Assembly (NCBI RefSeq): GCF_001677475.2
Contig: NZ_CP015229.1
From: Escherichia coli
GTDB taxonomy: Bacteria; Pseudomonadota; Gammaproteobacteria; Enterobacterales; Enterobacteriaceae
Strand: one strand, 5' to 3'
DNA: 64,000 nt
The notes below the pieces were generated by a model that saw only the letters and a program-made list of their open reading frames with translations, searched no databases and was not told the origin of the DNA. Both the position numbers and the translations under genes were made by a program. Shown here piece by piece: positions 3,448-59,724 of this stretch (its first letter is position 1; every line of letters starts with the position of its first letter).

Positions 3448-4083
3448 CTATTCCAGTTGCTGGAGTTCACCGCGCGGGGTTACTCGCCAACGATGCTGAC
3501 AGAAATAAAGCAGCGGGTTGTCCTGATTACTGTCGCTATAGCCACTGTACAACCGCAGTGGCGTGCCGATTTTACGCTCCAGTTGCGCGACCTTCTCATG
3601 CCCGAGGCAACGCATCGTCAATACCCAACCACCATAGCCACGCTGAATCTGACTGGCGATAAGATTAACCCGCGGCAGCCAGGGCGTATCGAAATAAACC
3701 GCTTCAACCAGCGGCTGCGGAGAGCCGGTAATCAACCAGATATCAGCATCGGAACTTAACAGGTAGGTGGTTAATCGCTCCTGAACCAGCGGAAAGGCGG
3801 TAACATTGTCACGAAACCAGCGTACGAAATCGGCCTGCAACGCCTGCAAACGCGCTTCATTGTGACCAAAAGTGCATCCCCACAGAAGCAGGCTCATCGG
3901 CCAGCGTGCCGCACGACCTTTTATCAATAACGCAATGGCTATGATCGGCAACAACGGCAGAACAAGTAACGCATTCAGCGGTTGGCGACGCAGTAAATAA
4001 CGCAAAAAACTGCCGAACATATCCTGCTGATGCAATGTTCCATCTAAGTCAAAAAACACCACACGACGCTCGTGAGTTGCCAA
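3448..4083 (-). CDS. pgpC: phosphatidylglycerophosphatase C (HAD-like, N-terminal membrane anchor)
   Basis: 211-aa ORF; HAD motif VVFFDLDGTL; matches recalled YfhB/PgpC length and position. Confidence 0.88.
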   Translation of the reverse strand: MATHERRVVFFDLDGTLHQQDMFGSFLRYLLRRQPLNALLVLPLLPIIAIALLIKGRAARWPMSLLLWGCTFGHNEARLQALQADFVRWFRDNVTAFPLVQERLTTYLLSSDADIWLITGSPQPLVEAVYFDTPWLPRVNLIASQIQRGYGGWVLTMRCLGHEKVAQLERKIGTPLRLYSGYSDSNQDNPLLYFCQHRWRVTPRGELQQLE

Positions 4084-4291
4084 ACCATACTCCTCTGGAC
4101 TGAAACATCCTGATTAATTTTCGCTACTACATAGCCTAACAGATAGATCATCACTTTTCCGGCAACAATCGACCGCATCATGGCTAACTGGAATTTTTAA
4201 TTCATGGCAATTAGCGGCAATGGAATATAAAATTCACTCGCGTGTGTCTCATATTGCCTGTTGTCGCCACTATTTCATCGCGAGGAAAGAT

Positions 4292-5140
4292 ATGAACGGC
4301 TTACTTCGTATCCGTCAGCGTTACCAGGGGCTTGCCCAAAGTGATAAAAAACTGGCGGATTATCTGCTGCTACAACCTGATACGGCGCGCCATTTAAGCT
4401 CTCAGCAACTGGCCAACGAAGCCGGAGTCAGTCAGTCCAGCGTCGTGAAGTTCGCGCAAAAACTCGGCTATAAAGGTTTCCCGGCGCTTAAGTTAGCGTT
4501 GAGTGAAGCGCTGGCAAGCCAGCCGGAATCTCCCTCCGTGCCCATTCATAACCAAATCCGCGGTGATGATCCGTTACGGCTGGTCGGCGAAAAACTGATT
4601 AAAGAAAATACTGCCGCTATGTACGCAACGCTAAACGTTAATAGTGAAGAGAAACTGCATGAATGCGTAACAATGTTGCGCTCTGCGCGGCGGATAATTC
4701 TGACCGGTATTGGCGCTTCGGGTCTGGTGGCGCAAAACTTTGCCTGGAAGCTGATGAAGATTGGCTTCAATGCTGCCGCAGTGCGCGATATGCATGCGCT
4801 ACTCGCTACAGTACAGGCGTCGTCCCCTGACGATCTGTTATTAGCCATTTCTTACACCGGTGTACGACGCGAGTTAAACCTGGCGGCAGATGAGATGCTG
4901 CGAGTGGGCGGAAAAGTGCTGGCGATTACCGGCTTTACTCCCAATGCCCTGCAACAGCGCGCTTCTCATTGCCTGTATACCATTGCCGAAGAACAAGCGA
5001 CAAACAGTGCTTCAATCTCTGCTTGTCACGCGCAGGGAATGTTAACGGATTTGCTGTTCATTGCGCTGATTCAGCAGGATCTGGAACTGGCACCAGAACG
5101 TATTCGTCATAGTGAAGCGCTGGTGAAAAAACTGGTCTGA
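4292..5140 (+). CDS. yfhH: RpiR/MurR-family transcriptional regulator (HTH + SIS domain)
   Basis: ATG at 4292 preceded by GAGGAAAGA; 282 aa matching K-12 YfhH length; HTH segment followed by SIS-like region. Confidence 0.88.
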   Translation: MNGLLRIRQRYQGLAQSDKKLADYLLLQPDTARHLSSQQLANEAGVSQSSVVKFAQKLGYKGFPALKLALSEALASQPESPSVPIHNQIRGDDPLRLVGEKLIKENTAAMYATLNVNSEEKLHECVTMLRSARRIILTGIGASGLVAQNFAWKLMKIGFNAAAVRDMHALLATVQASSPDDLLLAISYTGVRRELNLAADEMLRVGGKVLAITGFTPNALQQRASHCLYTIAEEQATNSASISACHAQGMLTDLLFIALIQQDLELAPERIRHSEALVKKLV

Positions 5141-5159
5141 GTAAAGAATGCGCGTATAA

Positions 5160-5456
<297 letters not shown>

Positions 5457-5649
5457 TATTCTGCTCTGGAAGTAGAGTATTAATTATTTTACAGGAAAGC
5501 CTTAACGCCATTATATTTATTTAATTGATGACATTAGCATAATTATTCACAAAATGAATTTATATAATATCTGCCCAGACATTTATTTATAATTATTAAA
5601 GGCGCGCCTGGCTGGTTAACCTGACGCGCCTTAAGTACGTTTCCTTATG

Positions 5650-5730
5650 TTATAAGAACAGAAGGATCAGCTGTAAAACAGCAATGATGATTTTGATGAC
5701 CCGTTTAATAAGGTATCGGCAATCAGTCAT
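5650..5730 (-). CDS. shoB: type I toxin ShoB, 26-aa hydrophobic peptide
   Basis: Reverse complement of 5650-5730 translates exactly to MTDCRYLIKRVIKIIIAVLQLILLFL plus stop; too short for the ORF track. Confidence 0.9.
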   Translation of the reverse strand: MTDCRYLIKRVIKIIIAVLQLILLFL

Positions 5731-6051
5731 TCGTTTTTCCTTAAACAAGGAATGCAGCCGTTCAGATTAGCCCTTACATCTCCCCAAAACTGAACGTGCG
5801 AGTTATTGGAATCGAGTGCTGCACTCCACACCAGAGCTTTGACGACACCACTCGTTTCAATGGGGGAATTCAGTGGCATGGTGTAAAGCACAGCAAAATT
5901 GCCAATAACGAAACCGATTTTAATGTACTTATCAAAAAGCGGTCACGTTAATCTTTTCATCAATGTCGATTTCTTCGTAAAGGCTCGCGTTTTTTATGTC
6001 AGAGATTGCAAGTTGCTTGTACAGGTCAACTAAATTGATCCATAATCATTT

Positions 6052-6128
6052 CCGTTGGAATCGTGTGCTGCACAAAATTAAAGTTGTAAAGTGAAAACCC
6101 CCGTTCCTTACCAGTTCGGGGGTTTTAC
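6052..6128 (+). ncRNA. ohsC: candidate antitoxin sRNA OhsC, divergent from shoB
   Basis: Sigma70-like -35 TTGTAC / 18 bp / -10 CATAAT (6041-6046); rho-independent hairpin CCCCCG...CGGGGG + T-tract at 6098-6126; 19-nt segment 6055-6073 matches plus-strand 5806-5824 in the shoB 5'-UTR region at 18/19 positions, the expected pairing site. Confidence 0.45.
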
Positions 6129-6151
6129 TTTATAAAGAGAACGGTATTTTT

Positions 6152-6532
6152 TTAACTTTCAATAATTACCGTGGCACAAGCATAGTGGCGTTCATCTGCC
6201 AGCGTTACATGCATATTTACAACGCCGAGCTTTTCCGCCAGTTTTAATGCCTCACCCCATAGCCGTAGCCGTGGTTTGCCGAGCTCATCATTGAATACTT
6301 CAAATTGATTAAACGCCAGACCATTGCGGATCCCGGTGCCAAACGCTTTTGCCGCCGCTTCTTTCACAGCAAAACGCTTCGCCAGAAAACGCACCGGCTG
6401 GTGGTGCGTTTTCCAGATTGCCCATTCGTTATCGCTTAATACGCGGCGTGCCAGGCGTTCACCGGATCGGGCGATCACCGCTTCTATGCGAGCGATCTCC
6501 ACAATATCCGTACCTAAACCTAATATTGCCAT
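6152..6532 (-). CDS. acpS: holo-[acyl-carrier-protein] synthase
   Basis: 126-aa ORF starting [13 protein letters not shown]; last gene of the rnc-era-recO-pdxJ-acpS cluster. Confidence 0.95.
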
Positions 6533-7263
6533 TAGCCACGCGATTCCAGCATCAGACGCTTCATTTCTGCCACCGCATCTTTCAGTCCGGTCATCACTGC
6601 ACGACCAATAATGGCATGACCGATATTCAGTTCATGCATCTCAGGGATGGCAGCAATAGCTTTCACGTTGTGATAGGTCAGACCGTGACCAGCGTTAACT
6701 TTCAGACCGAGACTAGCGGCAAAGGTCGCGGCTTTGGCGATACGCGCCAGCTCTTGCGCCTGTTCGGCGTCAGTTTTGGCATCAGCATAGCAACCGGTGT
6801 GGATCTCGATAAACGGTGCGCCAACCTCTGCCGCAGCTTTGATCTGCTCTTCATCGGCGTCGATAAACAGAGAAACCTGGATCCCGGCCTCCGCCAGACG
6901 TTTACAGGCATCGCGCATTTTGTCACGCTGCCCTGCGACGTCCAGGCCGCCTTCGGTTGTTACTTCCTGACGCTTTTCCGGTACCAGACAGCAAAAATGT
7001 GGCTTCGTCTCAACGGCGATCGCCAGCATCTCTTCGGTCACCGCCATCTCCAGATTCATGCGGGTATCCAGCGTCTGCCGCAGGATACGCACGTCGCGGT
7101 CGGTAATGTGGCGGCGATCTTCACGTAAATGCACGGTAATGCCGTCCGCTCCCGCCTGCTCAGCAATAAACGCCGCCTGCACCGGATCCGGGTAAGCAGT
7201 ACCGCGTGCGTTACGCAGCGTTGCAATATGGTCAATGTTGACGCCTAACAGTAATTCAGCCAT
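6532..7263 (-). CDS. pdxJ: pyridoxine 5'-phosphate synthase
   Basis: 243 aa from [21 protein letters not shown]; 1-nt overlap with acpS. Confidence 0.95.
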
Positions 7264-7274
7264 GACAATCCTCA

Positions 7275-8003
7275 TCATTCATAATGTGTTTTCACCGTTC
7301 GCTTAGGCATAAACTGCCGGAACAGTTCCCTGCTCTTTAATGGTTTACCGCCAAGATACGGCTTAAGCGCCATGCGGGTAAAGCGTTTCGCGGCGCGTAG
7401 TGTGTCTGCGTCAGGAAATTCCCGCGCGTTTAACGCTTTTAACTGCCTTCCGGTGAACGTTTTATTGTCGATAACGACGCTTGCGATAAACCCTTTTTCT
7501 TCGCGATAACGATACGTCATGGTGTCATCTACCGGCTCGCCGCTACCCGCGCAATGGGTAAAATTGACGCCATAGCCCAGATGCCCGAGCAGTGCCAGTT
7601 CAAAGCGGCGCAGCGCGGGTTCTGGCGTACCAGTGGCACCTGCAAGTGACTGAATGCAGTGCAAGTAATCGAAAAAGAGTTCAGAGAAGCGCGTCTCGTA
7701 TTCCAGTACGCGGGAGAGAAGTTCGTTGATGTACAGACCGCTGTAAAGCGTGATACCGCTTAATGGCAGCGCCAGCGAGACAGCTTCAGCACTGCGCAGC
7801 GTTTTGACTTCGCCACGCCCGCCAAAACGTAGCAAGAGAGGGGTGAAAGGCTGTAATGCACCTTTCAGAGTAGAGCGTTTAGAGCGTGCGCCTTTGGCAA
7901 CCAGACGCACGCGACCCGATTCCTCCGTGAAGACGTCCAGCATCAGGCTGGTTTCGCTCCACGGGCGACTATGCAATACGAATGCGCGCTGCCAGCCTTC
8001 CAT
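7275..8003 (-). CDS. recO: DNA repair protein RecO
   Basis: 242 aa from [20 protein letters not shown]. Confidence 0.95.
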
Positions 8004-8134
8004 CATACTCGTCGCCTTTCAAGTTGCAGGTGCCTTGGCTGCACCCGTTCACCCTGGTCACTTACTTTAGTAAGCTCCCAGGGATTCACGGTCTTGCCGC
8101 CTTCCTGCACCTCGAAAGTCATAGAGTATGCTAA

Positions 8135-9747
<1,613 letters not shown>

Positions 9748-9988
9748 TCAGCACACGAAACAGACCTGATATACATGGCTCTGCTAACTGCTTCGCTGCA
9801 GTTTCAGTTTAGCGGTATATGGGGACCAACGCTGTTTCGTGTGCCGTGGCAACCTGGAGGTGCCAACCTTAAACTTCGGGGGAATATTCTATACACAACG
9901 ACGGGGGATGTCGTTAGCCACGGGAGATTTATCTCATAAATAATTCACGTTGTCGCCATAACGGCGACAACGTGAACGAAGATGGCTA

Positions 9989-10963
9989 TTAATGGATGCC
10001 GCCAATGCGACTTAAGCGCACACCTGTCGGCCATTCGCCTTCTTGCTTATCGAAGCTCATCCAGATAGCCGTTGCCCGACCGACCAGATTCGCTTCCGGC
10101 ACAAAGCCCCAGTAACGGCTGTCCGCGCTGTTGTCGCGGTTGTCGCCCATCATGAAGTATTGCCCCGGCGGTACAATCCAGGTTGCCAGTTGTTGCCCTG
10201 GCTGCTGGTAATACATCCCCACCTGATCCTGCGCAATCGGCACTGTCAGAATACGATGCGTCACATCACCCAGTGTCTCTTTACGCTCGGAAAGACGAAT
10301 TCCATTTTCTTTGGTTTCGTTTTTCGGCACTTCAAAGAATCCGCTGGTCGCTTCCCCACCATTACGGCGTGAGAAGGTCTGAACGAAATCGCTCGGTTCC
10401 ACGTTTGAGTAGGTGACCGGCAGCGCGTTTTCACACGCCTGGCCGGAACTGCATCCCGGTTGAATCGTCAGCTCTTTTGAGACCGGATCATAAGTGACTT
10501 TATCGCCCGGCAAACCCACCGCGCGCTTGATGTAATCAAGCTTTGGATCTTCCGGATATTTAAAGACCACGATATCGCCGCGTTTCGGATGACCGGTTTC
10601 GATCAGCGTTTTCTGGTAGATAGGATCTTTAATGCCATAAGCAAACTTCTCTACCAGAATAAAATCACCGATTAACAGAGTCGGCATCATCGAACCTGAC
10701 GGGATCTGGAACGGTTCATAAATAAACGAACGCACAATCAATACGATAGCCAGCACCGGAAAAACAGAAGCACCGGTTTCCAGCCAGCCAGGCTTCGGCG
10801 CAACTTTCTTCAGCGTTGCTTTATCCAGTGAGTCACCGGCAGCCGCCTGCGCCGCTGCCTGACGTTCCCGCCGTTTAGGTGCGAAAAAGAATTTATCCAC
10901 GCACCATAAAATGCCCGTCACCAGTGTGGCAATCACCAGAATCAGGGCAAACATATTCGCCAT
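9989..10963 (-). CDS. lepB: signal peptidase I
   Basis: 324 aa; catalytic Ser box SGSMMPTL; two N-terminal TM segments. Confidence 0.96.
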   Translation of the reverse strand: MANMFALILVIATLVTGILWCVDKFFFAPKRRERQAAAQAAAGDSLDKATLKKVAPKPGWLETGASVFPVLAIVLIVRSFIYEPFQIPSGSMMPTLLIGDFILVEKFAYGIKDPIYQKTLIETGHPKRGDIVVFKYPEDPKLDYIKRAVGLPGDKVTYDPVSKELTIQPGCSSGQACENALPVTYSNVEPSDFVQTFSRRNGGEATSGFFEVPKNETKENGIRLSERKETLGDVTHRILTVPIAQDQVGMYYQQPGQQLATWIVPPGQYFMMGDNRDNSADSRYWGFVPEANLVGRATAIWMSFDKQEGEWPTGVRLSRIGGIH

Positions 10964-10978
10964 GCCAACTCCTAAGGG

Positions 10979-12778
<1,800 letters not shown>

Positions 12779-21926: not shown

Positions 21927-22033
21927 GTGATGCCTCCCCGGCAAAATTATTTGATTTGTTCAGCCTGTCGCGGCCAATTGGTAAAACCATTGTTGCTTGA
22001 GTGTATATATACTCCTCAAACACCCTTGAATCT

Positions 22034-22047
22034 TTGATTTAAATCAA
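22034..22047. promoter_or_regulatory. FNR/CRP-type box in the grcA promoter
   Basis: Perfect TTGAT-N4-ATCAA palindrome about 110 bp upstream of the grcA ATG; grcA is a known FNR-activated gene. Confidence 0.6.
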
Positions 22048-22230
22048 TAAAAACCACACATCAAGTATGGTCGCAAATGGATTTTATTGTTTTACATCAA
22101 CTTATGCAGGTGTGAATTTTTACCAATTTACATTTTTTTGCACTCGTTTAAGTCTAAAAAATGAGCATGATTTTGTTCTGTAGAAAGAAGCAGTTAAGCT
22201 AGGCGGATTGAAGATTCGCGGGAGAGCGAG

Positions 22231-46923: not shown

Positions 46924-47289
46924 ATGATGAAAAAGTTTATCGCCCCCTTGTTGGCTTTACTGGTTAGCGGATGTCAGATTGATCCTTATACTCACGCGCC
47001 AACCTTGACCAGCACCGACTGGTATGATGTTGGTATGGAAGATGCGATATCGGGCAGCGCCATAAAAGATGACGATGCATTTAGCGATTCACAGGCGGAT
47101 CGCGGTCTATACCTTAAAGGATATGCCGAAGGACAAAAGAAAACTTGCCAGACCGATTTTACTTATGCCCGAGGACTTTCCGGTAAAAGCTTTCCTGCCA
47201 GCTGCAACAATGTTGAAAATGCCAGCCAACTGCATGAAGTATGGCAAAAAGGGGCTGATGAAAATGCCAGCACAATACGATTAAATTAA
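46924..47289 (+). CDS. yfiL: lipoprotein YfiL
   Basis: 121 aa from MMKKFIAPLLALLVSGCQ (lipobox), AAGGAG RBS 8 nt upstream. Confidence 0.88.
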   Translation: MMKKFIAPLLALLVSGCQIDPYTHAPTLTSTDWYDVGMEDAISGSAIKDDDAFSDSQADRGLYLKGYAEGQKKTCQTDFTYARGLSGKSFPASCNNVENASQLHEVWQKGADENASTIRLN

Positions 47290-47438
47290 TTAAAACCCCA
47301 CAAATAAATTAAACATAAGATTTTACTCATTGTGTTTTATTTCTCACATTGATGACGGTCGCATGAAAAAATGATATTTTAATGAGCATTCTGAAAAAAT
47401 ATCGATGCATTTCGAGCGAAGATGGTGGGGATCCCTGA

Positions 47439-57098: not shown

Positions 57099-57977
57099 AT
57101 GAATAATCATTTCAAGTGTATTGGCATTGTGGGACACCCACGGCACCCCACTGCACTGACAACACATGAAATGCTCTACCGCTGGCTGTGCACAAAAGGT
57201 TACGAGGTCATCGTTGAGCAACAAATCGCTCACGAACTGCAACTGAAGAATGTGAAAACTGGCACGCTCGCGGAGATTGGGCAACAGGCTGATCTCGCGG
57301 TTGTCGTTGGCGGCGACGGTAATATGCTGGGCGCAGCGCGCACACTCGCCCGCTACGACATAAAAGTCATCGGCATCAACCGTGGCAACCTGGGTTTCCT
57401 GACCGACCTTGATCCCGATAACGCCCAGCAACAGTTAGCCGATGTGCTGGAAGGCCACTACATCAGCGAAAAACGTTTTTTGCTGGAAGCGCAAGTCTGT
57501 CAGCAAGATTGCCAGAAACGCATCAGCACGGCGATTAACGAAGTGGTACTTCACCCTGGCAAAGTGGCGCATATGATTGAGTTCGAAGTATATATCGACG
57601 AGATCTTTGCGTTTTCTCAGCGTTCCGATGGCCTGATTATTTCGACGCCAACAGGTTCCACCGCTTATTCCCTCTCAGCGGGAGGTCCGATTCTGACACC
57701 GTCTCTGGATGCGATTACCCTGGTGCCCATGTTCCCGCATACGTTGTCAGCACGACCACTGGTCATAAACAGCAGCAGCACGATCCGTCTGCGTTTTTCG
57801 CATCGCCGTAACGACCTGGAAATCAGTTGCGACAGCCAGATAGCACTGCCTATTCAGGAAGGTGAAGATGTCCTGATTCGTCGCTGTGATTACCATCTGA
57901 ATCTAATTCATCCGAAAGATTACAGTTATTTCAATACATTAAGCACCAAGCTCGGCTGGTCAAAAAAATTATTCTAA
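57099..57977 (+). CDS. nadK: NAD kinase
   Basis: 292 aa; GGDG motif ([14 protein letters not shown]). Confidence 0.96.
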
Positions 57978-57994
57978 TTTTACGCTAGCCTCTT

Positions 57995-58054
57995 TACTGT
58001 ATATAAAACCAGTTTATACTGTACACAATAACAGTAATGGTTTTTCATACAGGA
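57995..58054. promoter_or_regulatory. LexA (SOS) boxes of the recN promoter
   Basis: TACTGTATATAAAACCAGTT (57995-58014), TACTGTACACAATAACAGTA (58017-58036) and a weaker third CTGT..ACAG-like site to 58054; CTGT-N8-ACAG consensus. Confidence 0.75.
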
Positions 58055-58062
58055 AAACAACT

Positions 58063-59724
58063 ATGTTGGCACAACTGACCATCAGCAACTTTGCTATCGT
58101 TCGTGAGCTTGAGATTGATTTTCATAGCGGCATGACCGTAATAACTGGCGAGACCGGCGCGGGTAAATCTATTGCAATAGATGCCCTCGGTCTTTGTCTC
58201 GGTGGTCGCGCTGAAGCCGACATGGTGCGTACCGGCGCTGCTCGCGCTGACCTGTGCGCCCGTTTTTCTCTGAAAGATACGCCAGCGGCTCTGCGCTGGC
58301 TGGAAGAAAACCAGCTTGAAGACGGGCATGAATGTTTGCTTCGTCGCGTAATCAGCAACGATGGTCGCTCACGAGGTTTTATCAACGGTACAGCTGTTCC
58401 TCTGTCACAACTGCGCGAACTGGGTCAGTTGCTCATTCAGATCCATGGTCAGCACGCTCATCAGTTACTCACCAAACCCGAGCACCAAAAATTCCTGCTT
58501 GATGGCTATGCCAATGAAACCTCTCTACTTCAGGAAATGACCGCACGTTATCAGTTGTGGCATCAAAGCTGCCGTGACCTCGCGCATCATCAACAGTTAA
58601 GTCAGGAACGCGCCGCCCGTGCGGAACTGCTGCAATACCAATTAAAAGAACTTAACGAATTTAATCCGCAGCCCGGAGAGTTTGAGCAAATCGACGAAGA
58701 GTACAAACGTCTGGCGAACAGCGGTCAATTGCTGACCACCAGCCAGAATGCATTGGCATTAATGGCCGACGGTGAAGACGCAAACCTGCAAAGTCAGCTT
58801 TACACGGCTAAACAACTGGTGAGCGAATTGATTGGCATGGACAGCAAACTGTCCGGCGTACTTGATATGCTGGAAGAAGCTACCATCCAGATTGCTGAAG
58901 CCAGCGACGAACTGCGCCACTACTGCGATCGTCTGGATCTCGATCCCAACCGACTGTTTGAACTTGAACAGCGCATCTCAAAACAGATTTCGCTGGCACG
59001 TAAACATCACGTCAGCCCTGAGGCATTACCACAGTATTACCAGTCGTTACTGGAAGAACAGCAGCAACTGGACGATCAGGCCGACTCACAAGAAACGCTC
59101 GCGCTGGCGGTAACGAAACATCATCAGCAGGCACTGGAAACCGCGCGCGCATTACATAAACAACGCCAGCAATATGCAGAAGAACTTGCACAGCTGATCA
59201 CCGACAGTATGCATGCGCTCTCAATGCCGCATGGGCAGTTTACGATCGATGTTAAATTTGACGAGCATCACCTGGGCGCTGACGGTGCCGATCGTATTGA
59301 GTTTCGGGTAACCACCAACCCAGGTCAGCCAATGCAGCCTATTGCCAAAGTCGCATCCGGTGGTGAATTGTCCCGCATCGCATTGGCAATCCAGGTCATC
59401 ACGGCGCGTAAAATGGAAACCCCGGCACTGATTTTTGATGAAGTGGATGTAGGGATTAGCGGTCCAACAGCGGCAGTTGTCGGCAAACTGCTGCGTCAAC
59501 TCGGCGAATCAACTCAGGTGATGTGTGTTACCCACCTGCCACAAGTCGCGGGATGTGGTCATCAACACTATTTTGTCAGCAAAGAAACCGATGGTGCGAT
59601 GACAGAAACACACATGCAATCCCTGGATAAAAAAGCGCGGTTACAAGAGCTGGCGCGCCTGCTTGGTGGCAGTGAAGTCACACGTAATACACTGGCGAAT
59701 GCGAAAGAACTGCTTGCGGCGTAA
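58063..59724 (+). CDS. recN: DNA repair protein RecN (SMC-like)
   Basis: 553 aa; Walker A GETGAGKS and C-terminal signature region. Confidence 0.96.

What the first reader, a model, noticed from the sequence alone, without database searches (positions are those of the whole stretch)
5457..5649. Strongly AT-rich spacer between yfhL and shoB
About 190 bp of very AT-rich sequence (long runs such as ATTTATTTAATTGATGACATTAGCATAATTATTCACAAAATGAATTTATATAATAT) ending in an imperfect GC hairpin (AGGCGCGCC...CGCGCCTT) that would terminate shoB. Curved, AT-rich tracts like this are typical nucleoid-protein binding regions and may silence or insulate the toxin locus.
Basis: inference. Interest (0 to 1): 0.12.

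Follow-up and report, generated by a model that had tools for sequence, protein, structure and literature searches.

The report
AT-rich tail of shoB toxin insertion
This very AT-rich 190-bp gap between two converging genes is the outer edge of a small toxin–antitoxin cassette (shoB–ohsC) found only in Escherichia; it holds the toxin gene's terminator and DNA that published K-12 maps show bound by the silencing protein H-NS, so it is real but ordinary.

Summary
Positions 5457-5599 have 23.8% G+C, the lowest in the 64-kb window, and the highest TpA density. The hairpin (5600-5631) is real.

It folds better on the minus strand and keeps its pairing in two haplotypes. In K-12, published Term-seq puts the shoB mRNA 3' end 8 nt after it (window ~5592).

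The window is not K-12. No complete E. coli genome exceeds 97.2% identity over the neighbouring genes.

The whole yfhL-acpS gap (5457-6151, 695 bp, 37.8% G+C) is an Escherichia-only insertion flanked by TTAA. In some 30 related enterobacterial genomes sampled the two stop codons overlap in one such tetranucleotide.

- H-NS ChIP-chip covers the spacer in aerobic cultures.
- H-NS ChAP-seq scores yfhL as bound.
- A sigma-70 peak maps to ~5588.
- A Rho-dependent termination zone on the plus strand maps to ~5653.

"Curved" is not supported, because there are no phased A-tracts and predicted curvature is below average. Silencing or insulation of shoB remains inference.

The spacer sequence drifts at about the synonymous rate, while its length and composition are kept.

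Verdict: an ordinary, essentially known kind of feature, of low interest.

The parts
5196..5456 (+). yfhL coding sequence (4Fe-4S ferredoxin). Its stop codon TAA is at 5454-5456.
   Evidence: ORF list; annotation of homologous E. coli records.
5453..5456 (.). Left copy of the TTAA direct repeat (TTTAA, 5452-5456) flanking the Escherichia-specific insertion. It contains the yfhL stop codon.
   Evidence: In some 30 other enterobacterial genomes sampled, a single YTAR tetranucleotide holds both the yfhL and acpS stop codons.
5453..5483 (+). A 13-bp AU-rich hairpin that includes the yfhL stop codon, followed by UUAUUUUA. It is a candidate weak yfhL terminator and the left end of the insertion.
   Evidence: Energy is -12.2 kcal/mol in 6 of 8 alleles, with G.U and shifted pairs elsewhere (-8.0 to -9.6). 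No plus-strand Term-seq 3' end is listed there in K-12, so function is not shown.
5484..5599 (.). Extremely AT- and TpA-rich non-coding core (G+C about 0.21). It is H-NS-occupied in K-12 and dense in -10-like hexamers. The K-12 sigma-70 ChIP-seq peak maps to about 5588.
   Evidence: Composition; H-NS and sigma-70 tables of Myers 2013; no ORF of 20 aa or more lying within the spacer, no Rfam match, no other copy in the window.
5592..5599 (-). U-rich tail of the shoB terminator (UUAAUAAU). The inferred shoB mRNA 3' end is at about 5592.
   Evidence: K-12 Term-seq 3' end at 2700059(-) in three conditions, mapped through alignment A1.
5600..5631 (-). Stem-loop of the shoB intrinsic terminator.
   Evidence: Folds. 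Two haplotypes both give -22 to -26 kcal/mol on the minus strand. The G.U pairs would be C.A mismatches on the plus strand.
5632..5649 (-). Proximal part of the shoB 3' UTR. It includes GGAAACGUACUUAAGG, which is shared with the dinQ 3' UTR.
   Evidence: Nearly invariant among alleles; similarity to dinQ.
5650..5730 (-). shoB coding sequence (26-aa type I toxin).
   Evidence: Translation identical to K-12 ShoB.
5653..5653 (+). Window equivalent of the best-scoring coordinate of the published plus-strand Rho termination region (K-12 2700120, antisense to shoB).
   Evidence: Adams 2021 supplementary file 2: Rho score 3.75, p = 2.3e-8, computed on 800-nt windows.
5457..6151 (.). The whole 695-bp Escherichia-specific insertion (G+C 0.378): AT-rich tail, shoB, its 5' UTR and promoter, and ohsC.
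   Evidence: Present in E. coli and E. albertii and absent from the other sampled enterobacterial yfhL-acpS junctions. No true plasmid or phage homologue.
6054..6131 (+). ohsC antitoxin small RNA.
   Evidence: Rfam RF02495, 95.4 bits, E = 1.5e-15.
6152..6155 (.). Right copy of the TTAA direct repeat (TTTAA, 6151-6155). It contains the acpS stop codon (6152-6154, minus strand).

Best explanation
The interval is the yfhL-proximal end of a 695-bp insertion found only in Escherichia. That insertion carries the shoB-ohsC type I toxin-antitoxin pair. It sits in the TTAA where the yfhL and acpS stop codons overlap in related enterobacteria.

The interval has three parts:
1. An AU-rich hairpin over the yfhL stop codon.
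2. About 115 bp of extremely AT- and TpA-rich non-coding DNA.
3. The shoB intrinsic terminator.

It acts as the termination and buffer zone between two converging transcription units. shoB mRNA ends at the hairpin, about 8 nt downstream. Plus-strand transcription that enters from yfhL is stopped mainly by Rho near the shoB stop codon. The AT-rich DNA is coated by H-NS. That is the usual fate of AT-rich acquired DNA. H-NS would keep its many promoter-like hexamers quiet and could help Rho.

Shown here or in published K-12 data: the composition, the insertion, the terminator, H-NS occupancy, a sigma-70 peak, and bicyclomycin-sensitive read-through.

Inferred: that H-NS and Rho action here matters for shoB or yfhL expression.
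For: Insertion:
- In some 30 other enterobacterial genomes sampled the yfhL and acpS ends overlap; a handful carry other small inserts at the same junction.
- Escherichia carries 695 bp flanked by TTAA.

Terminator:
- Minus-strand stability and z-score.
- Two haplotypes keep the pairing through changes on both arms and through G.U pairs that work only on the minus strand.
- Term-seq 3' end in K-12.

H-NS:
- ChIP-chip region covering the spacer.
- ChAP-seq gene call for yfhL.
- Highest AT and TpA content of the window.

RNA polymerase and Rho:
- A sigma-70 peak maps to about 5588. The coordinate conversion was checked against the yfhL -10 hexamer.
- The spacer has ten -10-like hexamers.
- Plus-strand Rho termination region, score 3.75.

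Constraint pattern:
- Length of 141-142 bp and G+C of 0.23-0.275 are kept in eight alleles.
- This includes one allele that differs at 46 of 143 positions.
Against: - All occupancy and transcript data come from K-12 (or strains SE11 and SE15), not from this lineage.
- In anaerobic cultures the two H-NS regions leave a 212-bp gap (window 5392-5603) that coincides with the AT-rich core. This could be real displacement or poor hybridisation of AT-rich probes.
- The Rho score uses 800-nt windows, and the downstream window contains ohsC.
- The spacer RNA is C-poor: 18 C in 143 nt, C/G at most 1.6. That makes it a poor classical rut site.
- The primary sequence drifts at about the synonymous rate: pi 0.147 against 0.097 and 0.142 at third codon positions. 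The sample was chosen for diversity.
- The related dinQ locus has its terminator directly against gor with no AT-rich spacer, so the toxin module does not need one.
Confidence: 0.6

Rival explanations
1. Neutral filler. Beyond the terminator, the AT-rich stretch is leftover DNA of the insertion with no selected role. H-NS and RNA polymerase bind it only because any such AT-rich DNA attracts them.
For: - Diversity is at or above the synonymous-site level.
- One allele differs at 32% of positions.
- It lies between convergent genes, where no promoter is needed.
- The related dinQ locus lacks such a spacer.
- No RNA family, no ORF within the spacer, no conserved internal hairpin.
Against: - Length (141-142 bp) and G+C (0.23-0.275) are kept across divergent alleles and in E. 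albertii.
- Several blocks are invariant, for example TTATATTTATTT at 5511-5522 and 5579-5601.
- A G+C of 0.24 is probably below what mutation bias alone would maintain. That rests on my own knowledge and was not tested.
Confidence: 0.3
2. The spacer holds a real promoter. The site would be near 5588, on either strand. It would make an unannotated RNA, for example a plus-strand RNA starting near 5600 that runs antisense through the shoB 3' UTR and ORF and is stopped by Rho.
For: - A sigma-70 ChIP-seq peak at K-12 2698079 maps to window 5588 (height 592, p = 1e-225).
- TATAAT at 5588-5593 (TATAGT in K-12) lies in a nearly invariant block.
- A plus-strand Rho termination region lies antisense to shoB.
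- The H-NS gap in anaerobic cultures coincides with the sigma-70 peak.
Against: - No convincing -35 element accompanies any candidate.
- The consensus scan finds 6 sites in 1.1 kb against 2.7 +/- 1.9 expected.
- The invariant block is equally explained as the terminator tail.
- No transcription start site data could be retrieved.
- Sigma-70 peaks in H-NS-bound AT-rich DNA are often non-productive. That rests on my own knowledge.
Confidence: 0.12
3. An intrinsically curved architectural element or a specific Fis or IHF site.
For: High AT content only.
Against: - Predicted curvature is below the window average, with no helical phasing.
- No IHF consensus, and no IHF ChIP-chip row in the neighbourhood.
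- Fis was not tested.
Confidence: 0.04

Closest known systems
Rho-independent (intrinsic) terminator of a type I toxin mRNA (shoB; compare dinQ)
   Same: A GC-rich stem-loop is followed by a U-containing tail. The mapped 3' end lies 8 nt after the stem. The stem is kept by paired changes. The 3' UTR motif GGAAACGUA[C/A]UUAAGG is shared with dinQ.
   Different: The tail is only UUU followed by AAUAAUUAU, not a long U run. The consensus terminator scan does not call it. In dinQ the terminator abuts the neighbouring gene with no AT-rich spacer.
H-NS-bound AT-rich acquired DNA (xenogeneic silencing), with Rho/NusG backing
   Same: The DNA is restricted to one lineage, AT- and TpA-rich, occupied by H-NS in vivo, bound by sigma-70, and adjacent to a Rho-dependent termination zone. 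This is the pattern described for H-NS-silenced regions (frameworks in PMC4337669 and PMC6797219; titles and abstracts only).
   Different: It is very small: a 115-bp core inside a 695-bp insert. It lies downstream of the gene, not over its promoter. No derepression in hns mutants has been shown for shoB.
Bidirectional terminators between convergent genes
   Same: A single strong hairpin lies between two converging genes.
   Different: The plus-strand version is weaker (-17.5 kcal/mol) and has no U tail (UUAAGUACG). No plus-strand Term-seq 3' end is listed. Plus-strand termination appears to depend on Rho.
Insertion with a target-site duplication (IS5-type YTAR targets)
   Same: The 695-bp segment is flanked by a direct TTAA at a site that is a single YTAR in relatives. 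An IS5-like element has inserted at TTAG inside the spacer in one strain.
   Different: It has no terminal inverted repeats, no transposase, one copy per genome, and no plasmid or phage copies. The duplication may simply be what preserves both stop codons.

Membership tests
Intrinsic (Rho-independent) terminator | Stable GC-rich stem-loop on the transcribed strand | tested here: met
   Minus strand -23 kcal/mol, z = -4.5; -22 to -26 kcal/mol in all 8 alleles.
Intrinsic (Rho-independent) terminator | U-rich tract immediately 3' of the stem | tested here: inconclusive
   The tail is UUUAAUAAUUAU: 3 U, then mixed A and U. It fails the scan rule of 5 T in 8.
Intrinsic (Rho-independent) terminator | RNA 3' end mapped 7-9 nt after the stem | tested here: met
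   Published K-12 Term-seq 3' end at 2700059(-), 8 nt after the homologous stem, in 3 conditions. Not measured in this strain.
Intrinsic (Rho-independent) terminator | Pairing kept by compensatory change | tested here: met
   The two haplotypes differ at 7 of 34 positions and both pair. The G.U pairs are valid only on the minus strand.
H-NS-bound xenogeneic DNA | AT content well above the genome average, TpA-rich | tested here: met
   G+C 0.21-0.24 against 0.508; TpA density 0.162 against 0.045.
H-NS-bound xenogeneic DNA | Lineage-restricted (acquired) DNA | tested here: met
   Present in E. coli and E. albertii and absent from the other sampled enterobacterial yfhL-acpS junctions. The source is unknown.
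H-NS-bound xenogeneic DNA | H-NS occupancy in vivo | tested here: met
   Published K-12 ChIP-chip region, aerobic, covers it. In anaerobic cultures the regions flank it. ChAP-seq scores yfhL as bound.
H-NS-bound xenogeneic DNA | Derepression of the locus when H-NS is removed | not tested
   No hns-mutant expression data for shoB or for spacer transcripts were found.
Intrinsically curved DNA | A-tracts phased at about 10.5 bp; high predicted curvature | tested here: not met
   Mean 4.7 degrees per turn against a window mean of 6.0. The maximum is at the 88th to 97th percentile. There is no AA/TT periodicity. The wedge parameters were recalled from memory.
Rho-dependent terminator (plus strand, yfhL read-through) | Read-through increases when Rho is inhibited | tested here: met
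   Published DirectRNA-seq with and without bicyclomycin: Rho score 3.75, p = 2.3e-8 at 2700120(+). Resolution is 800 nt, and the downstream window includes ohsC.
Rho-dependent terminator (plus strand, yfhL read-through) | C-rich, G-poor untranslated RNA (rut site) | tested here: not met
   18 C and 16 G in 143 nt; best 78-nt C/G ratio is 1.57.
Sigma-70 promoter | -35 and -10 hexamers with proper spacing, and a mapped start site | tested here: inconclusive
   Many -10-like hexamers and a sigma-70 ChIP peak, but poor -35 elements and no retrievable start-site data.
shoB-ohsC type I toxin-antitoxin locus | 26-aa ShoB ORF, divergent OhsC RNA, 19-nt complementarity to the shoB 5' UTR | tested here: met
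   ShoB is identical to K-12. ohsC scores 95 bits in Rfam. The 19-nt repeat 5806-5824 / 6055-6073 is 95% identical.
Transposable element (for the 695-bp insert) | Terminal inverted repeats, transposase, multiple copies | tested here: not met
   Only a flanking TTAA repeat is present. No terminal inverted repeats. One copy per genome. No mobile-element homologues.

The most novel reading that the evidence does not exclude
The sigma-70 peak inside the spacer marks a real, H-NS- and Rho-restrained promoter. Its plus-strand product would start at the base of the terminator hairpin (about 5600) and run antisense across the shoB 3' UTR and ORF. That would give shoB a second, cis-encoded antisense control besides OhsC, released when H-NS is displaced, for example in anaerobic growth.
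Probability: 0.08. Interest if true: 0.5.

Novelty: already known. Interest (0 to 1): 0.14.

Why it matters
It matters little beyond tidy annotation. The work does three small things.

It shows that the 'orphan' Term-seq 3' end at K-12 2700059 is the shoB terminator.

It shows that the AT-rich gap belongs to an Escherichia-only insertion that split two overlapping stop codons.

If the sigma-70 peak proved to be a working promoter, shoB would gain an unrecognised antisense layer. That would interest people working on type I toxin-antitoxin systems.

Tried and rejected
- Rfam at E <= 1 over 4500-7000 found only ohsC and nothing in the spacer.
- No ORF of 20 aa or more lies within the spacer; one 46-aa minus-strand ORF (5371-5511) only runs in from inside yfhL.
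- The consensus terminator scan called nothing, because its rules are too strict for both hairpins.
- The imperfect inverted repeat 5510-5531 / 5547-5568 is not kept among alleles, so it was rejected as a structure.
- The spacer is not a degenerate copy of another part of the locus and has no other copy in the window.
- No IHF consensus is present.
- The H-NS high-affinity motif TCGATAAATT has one two-mismatch hit in the spacer. That is not above the background of 1.45 per kb.
- Plasmid and phage searches gave no true homologue. The four 'plasmid' hits are records of 1.4-4.9 Mb.
- Start-site data were unavailable: Thomason 2015 is not held and the Cappable-seq table was cut before this region.
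- The supplements of Kahramanoglou 2011 and Prieto 2012 are not held.
- Fozo 2008 is not held.

Full report
**1. The observation**

The interval lies between the stop codon of yfhL (5196-5456, plus strand) and the stop codon of shoB (5650-5730, minus strand). Homologous E. coli records carry the same gene annotations, and Rfam finds ohsC at 6054-6131 (95 bits).

The AT-richness is real and extreme:
- G+C is 0.238 for 5457-5599 and 0.20 for 5505-5599. The window mean is 0.508 (sd 0.054), so this is the lowest value in the 64 kb.
- TpA density is 0.162 against 0.045 +/- 0.018, the window maximum. Five of the six longest A/T-only runs of the window lie at or next to the spacer, between 5446 and 5600.
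- The hairpin spans 5600-5631.

- The locus is about 91-93% identical to K-12.
- The adjacent housekeeping genes reach at most 97.2% identity to any of 5,425 complete E. coli genomes.
- The source is therefore a divergent Escherichia lineage.

**2. The hairpin is the shoB terminator**

On the minus strand the 60-nt context folds to -23 kcal/mol (z = -4.5). On the plus strand it gives only -17.5 kcal/mol (z = -2.1). The reason is that two pairs are G.U on the minus strand and would be C.A on the plus strand.

Across eight alleles, including E. albertii, there are two hairpin haplotypes that differ at 7 of 34 positions. All alleles fold to between -22 and -26 kcal/mol on the minus strand.

Published Term-seq for K-12 (Adams et al. 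2021, PMC7815308, supplementary file 1) lists a strong 3' end at 2700059(-) in all three growth conditions, classed as 'orphan'. Its printed sequence ends ...CCTTTAATAAC, 8 nt after the homologous stem. Through alignment A1 this maps to window position ~5592.

The tail is U-poor (UUUAAUAAUUAU), and the simple scan does not call it.

**3. The whole yfhL-acpS gap is an Escherichia-only insertion**

A scan of one genome per species returned 80 yfhL loci.

In some 30 enterobacterial genomes the last codon of acpS begins at the final base of the yfhL stop codon. These include Citrobacter, Enterobacter, Kluyvera, Kosakonia, Pluralibacter, Pseudescherichia and 'Escherichia sp. ESNIH1'. The two stop codons share one tetranucleotide, for example ...ATT**TAA**CTTTC....

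Only E. coli and E. albertii carry shoB and the spacer. In the window the ancestral TTAA appears twice, at 5453-5456 and at 6152-6155. It brackets 695 bp (5457-6151) of G+C 0.378.

The insert shows no mobile-element features:
- No terminal inverted repeats.
- No other copy in the genome.
- No true plasmid or phage homologue.

This fits Fozo et al. [quoted passage not shown] A few Citrobacter, Shimwellia and metagenome-assembled genome (MAG) loci carry other small inserts at the same junction.

**4. Anatomy of the interval**

- 5453-5483: a 13-bp AU-rich hairpin that includes the yfhL stop codon, followed by UUAUUUUA. It gives -12.2 kcal/mol in 6 of 8 alleles.
- 5484-5599: the AT- and TpA-rich core.
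- 5592-5631: the shoB terminator.
- 5632-5649: the proximal 3' UTR, nearly invariant.

**5.

Myers et al. 2013 (PMC3688515), Table S3, lists H-NS ChIP-chip regions for MG1655 in version-2 coordinates.

I converted these with window = v2 - 2692491. I checked the conversion on the sigma-70 peak at 2697646, which falls on the yfhL -10 TATAAT at 5155-5160. I also checked it on the peak at 2696611, which falls in the pgpC/yfhH promoter gap.

- Aerobic: one region, 2696277-2699099, maps to window 3786-6608 and covers the whole locus.
- Anaerobic: two regions map to window 4857-5391 and 5604-6681. They leave a 212-bp gap that is exactly the AT-rich core.

That gap may be real displacement. It may equally reflect weak hybridisation of very AT-rich probes. 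I cannot tell which.

Independently, Higashi et al. 2016 (PMC4720273, S2 Table) score yfhL as H-NS-bound. It stays bound when 3'-end-only overlaps of 10% or less of the gene are excluded. Its neighbours in that table, yfhK and recO, are unbound.

For IHF, no row of the published table falls here and no consensus site is present.

**6. Not curved**

Using the BEND algorithm with two wedge parameter sets (recalled from memory), the spacer averages 4.7 degrees per helical turn. The window mean is 6.0. The spacer maximum is at the 88th to 97th percentile.

AA/TT dinucleotides show no power at 9.5-11.5 bp compared with shuffles (p >= 0.5). The tract is TpA-rich and flexible. From my own knowledge, that is the kind of AT-rich DNA H-NS prefers.

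**7. RNA polymerase and Rho**

Myers Table S1 lists an anaerobic sigma-70 ChIP-seq peak at 2698079 (height 592, p = 1e-225). It maps to window ~5588, inside the core next to the terminator. For comparison, the yfhL promoter peak has height 3395 and the shoB/ohsC promoter region 1286.

The spacer holds ten -10-like hexamers in 143 bp (window mean 0.63, window maximum). These include TATAAT at 5563 and 5588. None has a convincing -35 element, and the consensus scan is not enriched.

Adams et al. supplementary file 2 lists a plus-strand Rho termination region whose best coordinate is 2700120, antisense to shoB, which maps to window ~5653.
- Untreated coverage falls from 90 upstream to 29 downstream.
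- With bicyclomycin it goes from 120 to 145.
- The Rho score is 3.75 and p = 2.3e-8.

No plus-strand Term-seq 3' end is listed between 2699900 and 2699999, so the hairpin next to yfhL is not shown to terminate.

Caveats apply. The Rho score uses 800-nt windows, and the downstream window contains ohsC. The spacer RNA is also C-poor, so any Rho loading would be at a poor site. That is the situation in which NusG is reported to matter in AT-rich silenced DNA (PMC6797219, abstract only).

**8. Constraint**

Nine alleles were chosen to span the identity range, which inflates spacer diversity. Mean pairwise difference in that sample:

| Region | Mean pairwise difference |
|---|---|
| AT-rich part | 0.147 |
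| Terminator hairpin | 0.13 |
| yfhL third codon positions | 0.097 |
| acpS third codon positions | 0.142 |
| shoB ORF | 0.019 |
| shoB 5' UTR | 0.036 |

The primary sequence of the core is therefore about as free as synonymous sites.

Yet its length stays at 141-142 bp and its G+C at 0.23-0.275 in every allele. That includes a type represented by strain MLI114, which differs at 46 of 143 positions. About 497 genomes fall in the 60-80% identity band that this allele represents. A few blocks are invariant: 5511-5522 and 5579-5601.

The related dinQ locus has its terminator directly against the gor stop codon with no spacer. The toxin module itself therefore does not need one.

**9. Interpretation**

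The best-supported reading is a termination and buffer zone at the edge of a small acquired cassette. It has an intrinsic terminator for shoB and Rho-dependent termination for plus-strand transcription coming from yfhL. It also has H-NS on AT-rich DNA that would otherwise offer many promoter-like sites.

Whether the AT-rich core is selected for this role or is inert filler that H-NS happens to coat is open. I put the neutral-filler reading at about 0.3.

A working promoter at ~5588 is possible but unproven, at about 0.1. It would be the only mildly novel outcome.

**10. Verdict**

The feature is real and its parts are of well-known kinds. Published K-12 genome-wide datasets already cover the homologous region. 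The interest is low.

Noticed in passing
window 5806-5824 and 6055-6073: The OhsC pairing site in the shoB 5' UTR and the 5' end of ohsC occur as two haplotypes: GGAATCGAG/GGAATCGTG and GAGGGTGCA/GAGGGTGCA (minor variants included). The two partners carry the same haplotype in all nine genomes examined, so pairing is kept by concerted change. Shore et al. 2024 (PMC11264685) note this region is variable and say its pairing has not been validated.
   Followed up: partly
window 5453-5456 and 6152-6155; loci L006-L038: The shoB-ohsC cassette (695 bp) is flanked by a direct TTAA. It sits where the yfhL and acpS stop codons overlap in a single YTAR tetranucleotide in other enterobacteria. It has no inverted repeats and no transposase. 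Other small REP-like inserts occupy the same junction in some Citrobacter, Shimwellia and MAG loci.
   Followed up: partly
window 5592-5650 versus K-12 dinQ locus, L090:1650-1710: The shoB and dinQ mRNAs share colinear short matches. These include the 3' UTR motif GGAAACGUA[C/A]UUAAGG, a terminator hairpin and a CCUUUAA tail (best local E = 0.003 in a tiny search space). This hints that the two toxin loci are related.
   Followed up: partly
L003 (E. coli SCPM-O-B-9504), equivalent to window 5534-5947: An IS5-like ISKpn26 element sits at the TTAG at window 5534-5537. The equivalent of 5538-5947 is lost, so shoB is gone while ohsC remains (an antitoxin-only strain).
   Followed up: partly
L084 (E. 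coli MLI114), equivalent to window 5475-5580: This spacer allele differs from the window at 46 of 143 positions. It has the same length, G+C content and terminator haplotype. About 497 complete genomes fall in the 60-80% identity band it represents. Its origin is unknown.
   Followed up: no
L085 (E. coli Ecol_542), upstream of yfhL: A tyrosine integrase gene lies directly upstream of yfhL in place of yfhH, and yfhL itself carries 21 differences. yfhL is a reported Stx2b prophage insertion site (PMC12029490).
   Followed up: no
whole window; 6152-11000 tested: The window is not K-12. Over acpS-pdxJ-recO-era-rnc-lepB the best identity to any of 5,425 complete E. coli genomes is 97.2%. This suggests a divergent Escherichia lineage.
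   Followed up: partly
window ~5299 (K-12 v2 2697790): A published Nac ChIP-seq peak lies inside yfhL. On Nac induction, shoB is reported up 82-fold and yfhL down about 50-fold (PMC5217608). This may reflect interplay between the two convergent transcripts. I did not check whether that RNA-seq was strand-specific.
   Followed up: no
window 21975-22219, 47206-47433, 57885-58104: These are the other lowest-GC stretches of the window (G+C 0.27-0.30 in 143-bp windows). I did not examine them.
   Followed up: no
window ~5217 and ~5982: Predicted curvature peaks of 18-20 degrees per turn lie at the 5' end of yfhL and in the shoB-ohsC promoter region. Both are outside the AT-rich spacer.
   Followed up: no
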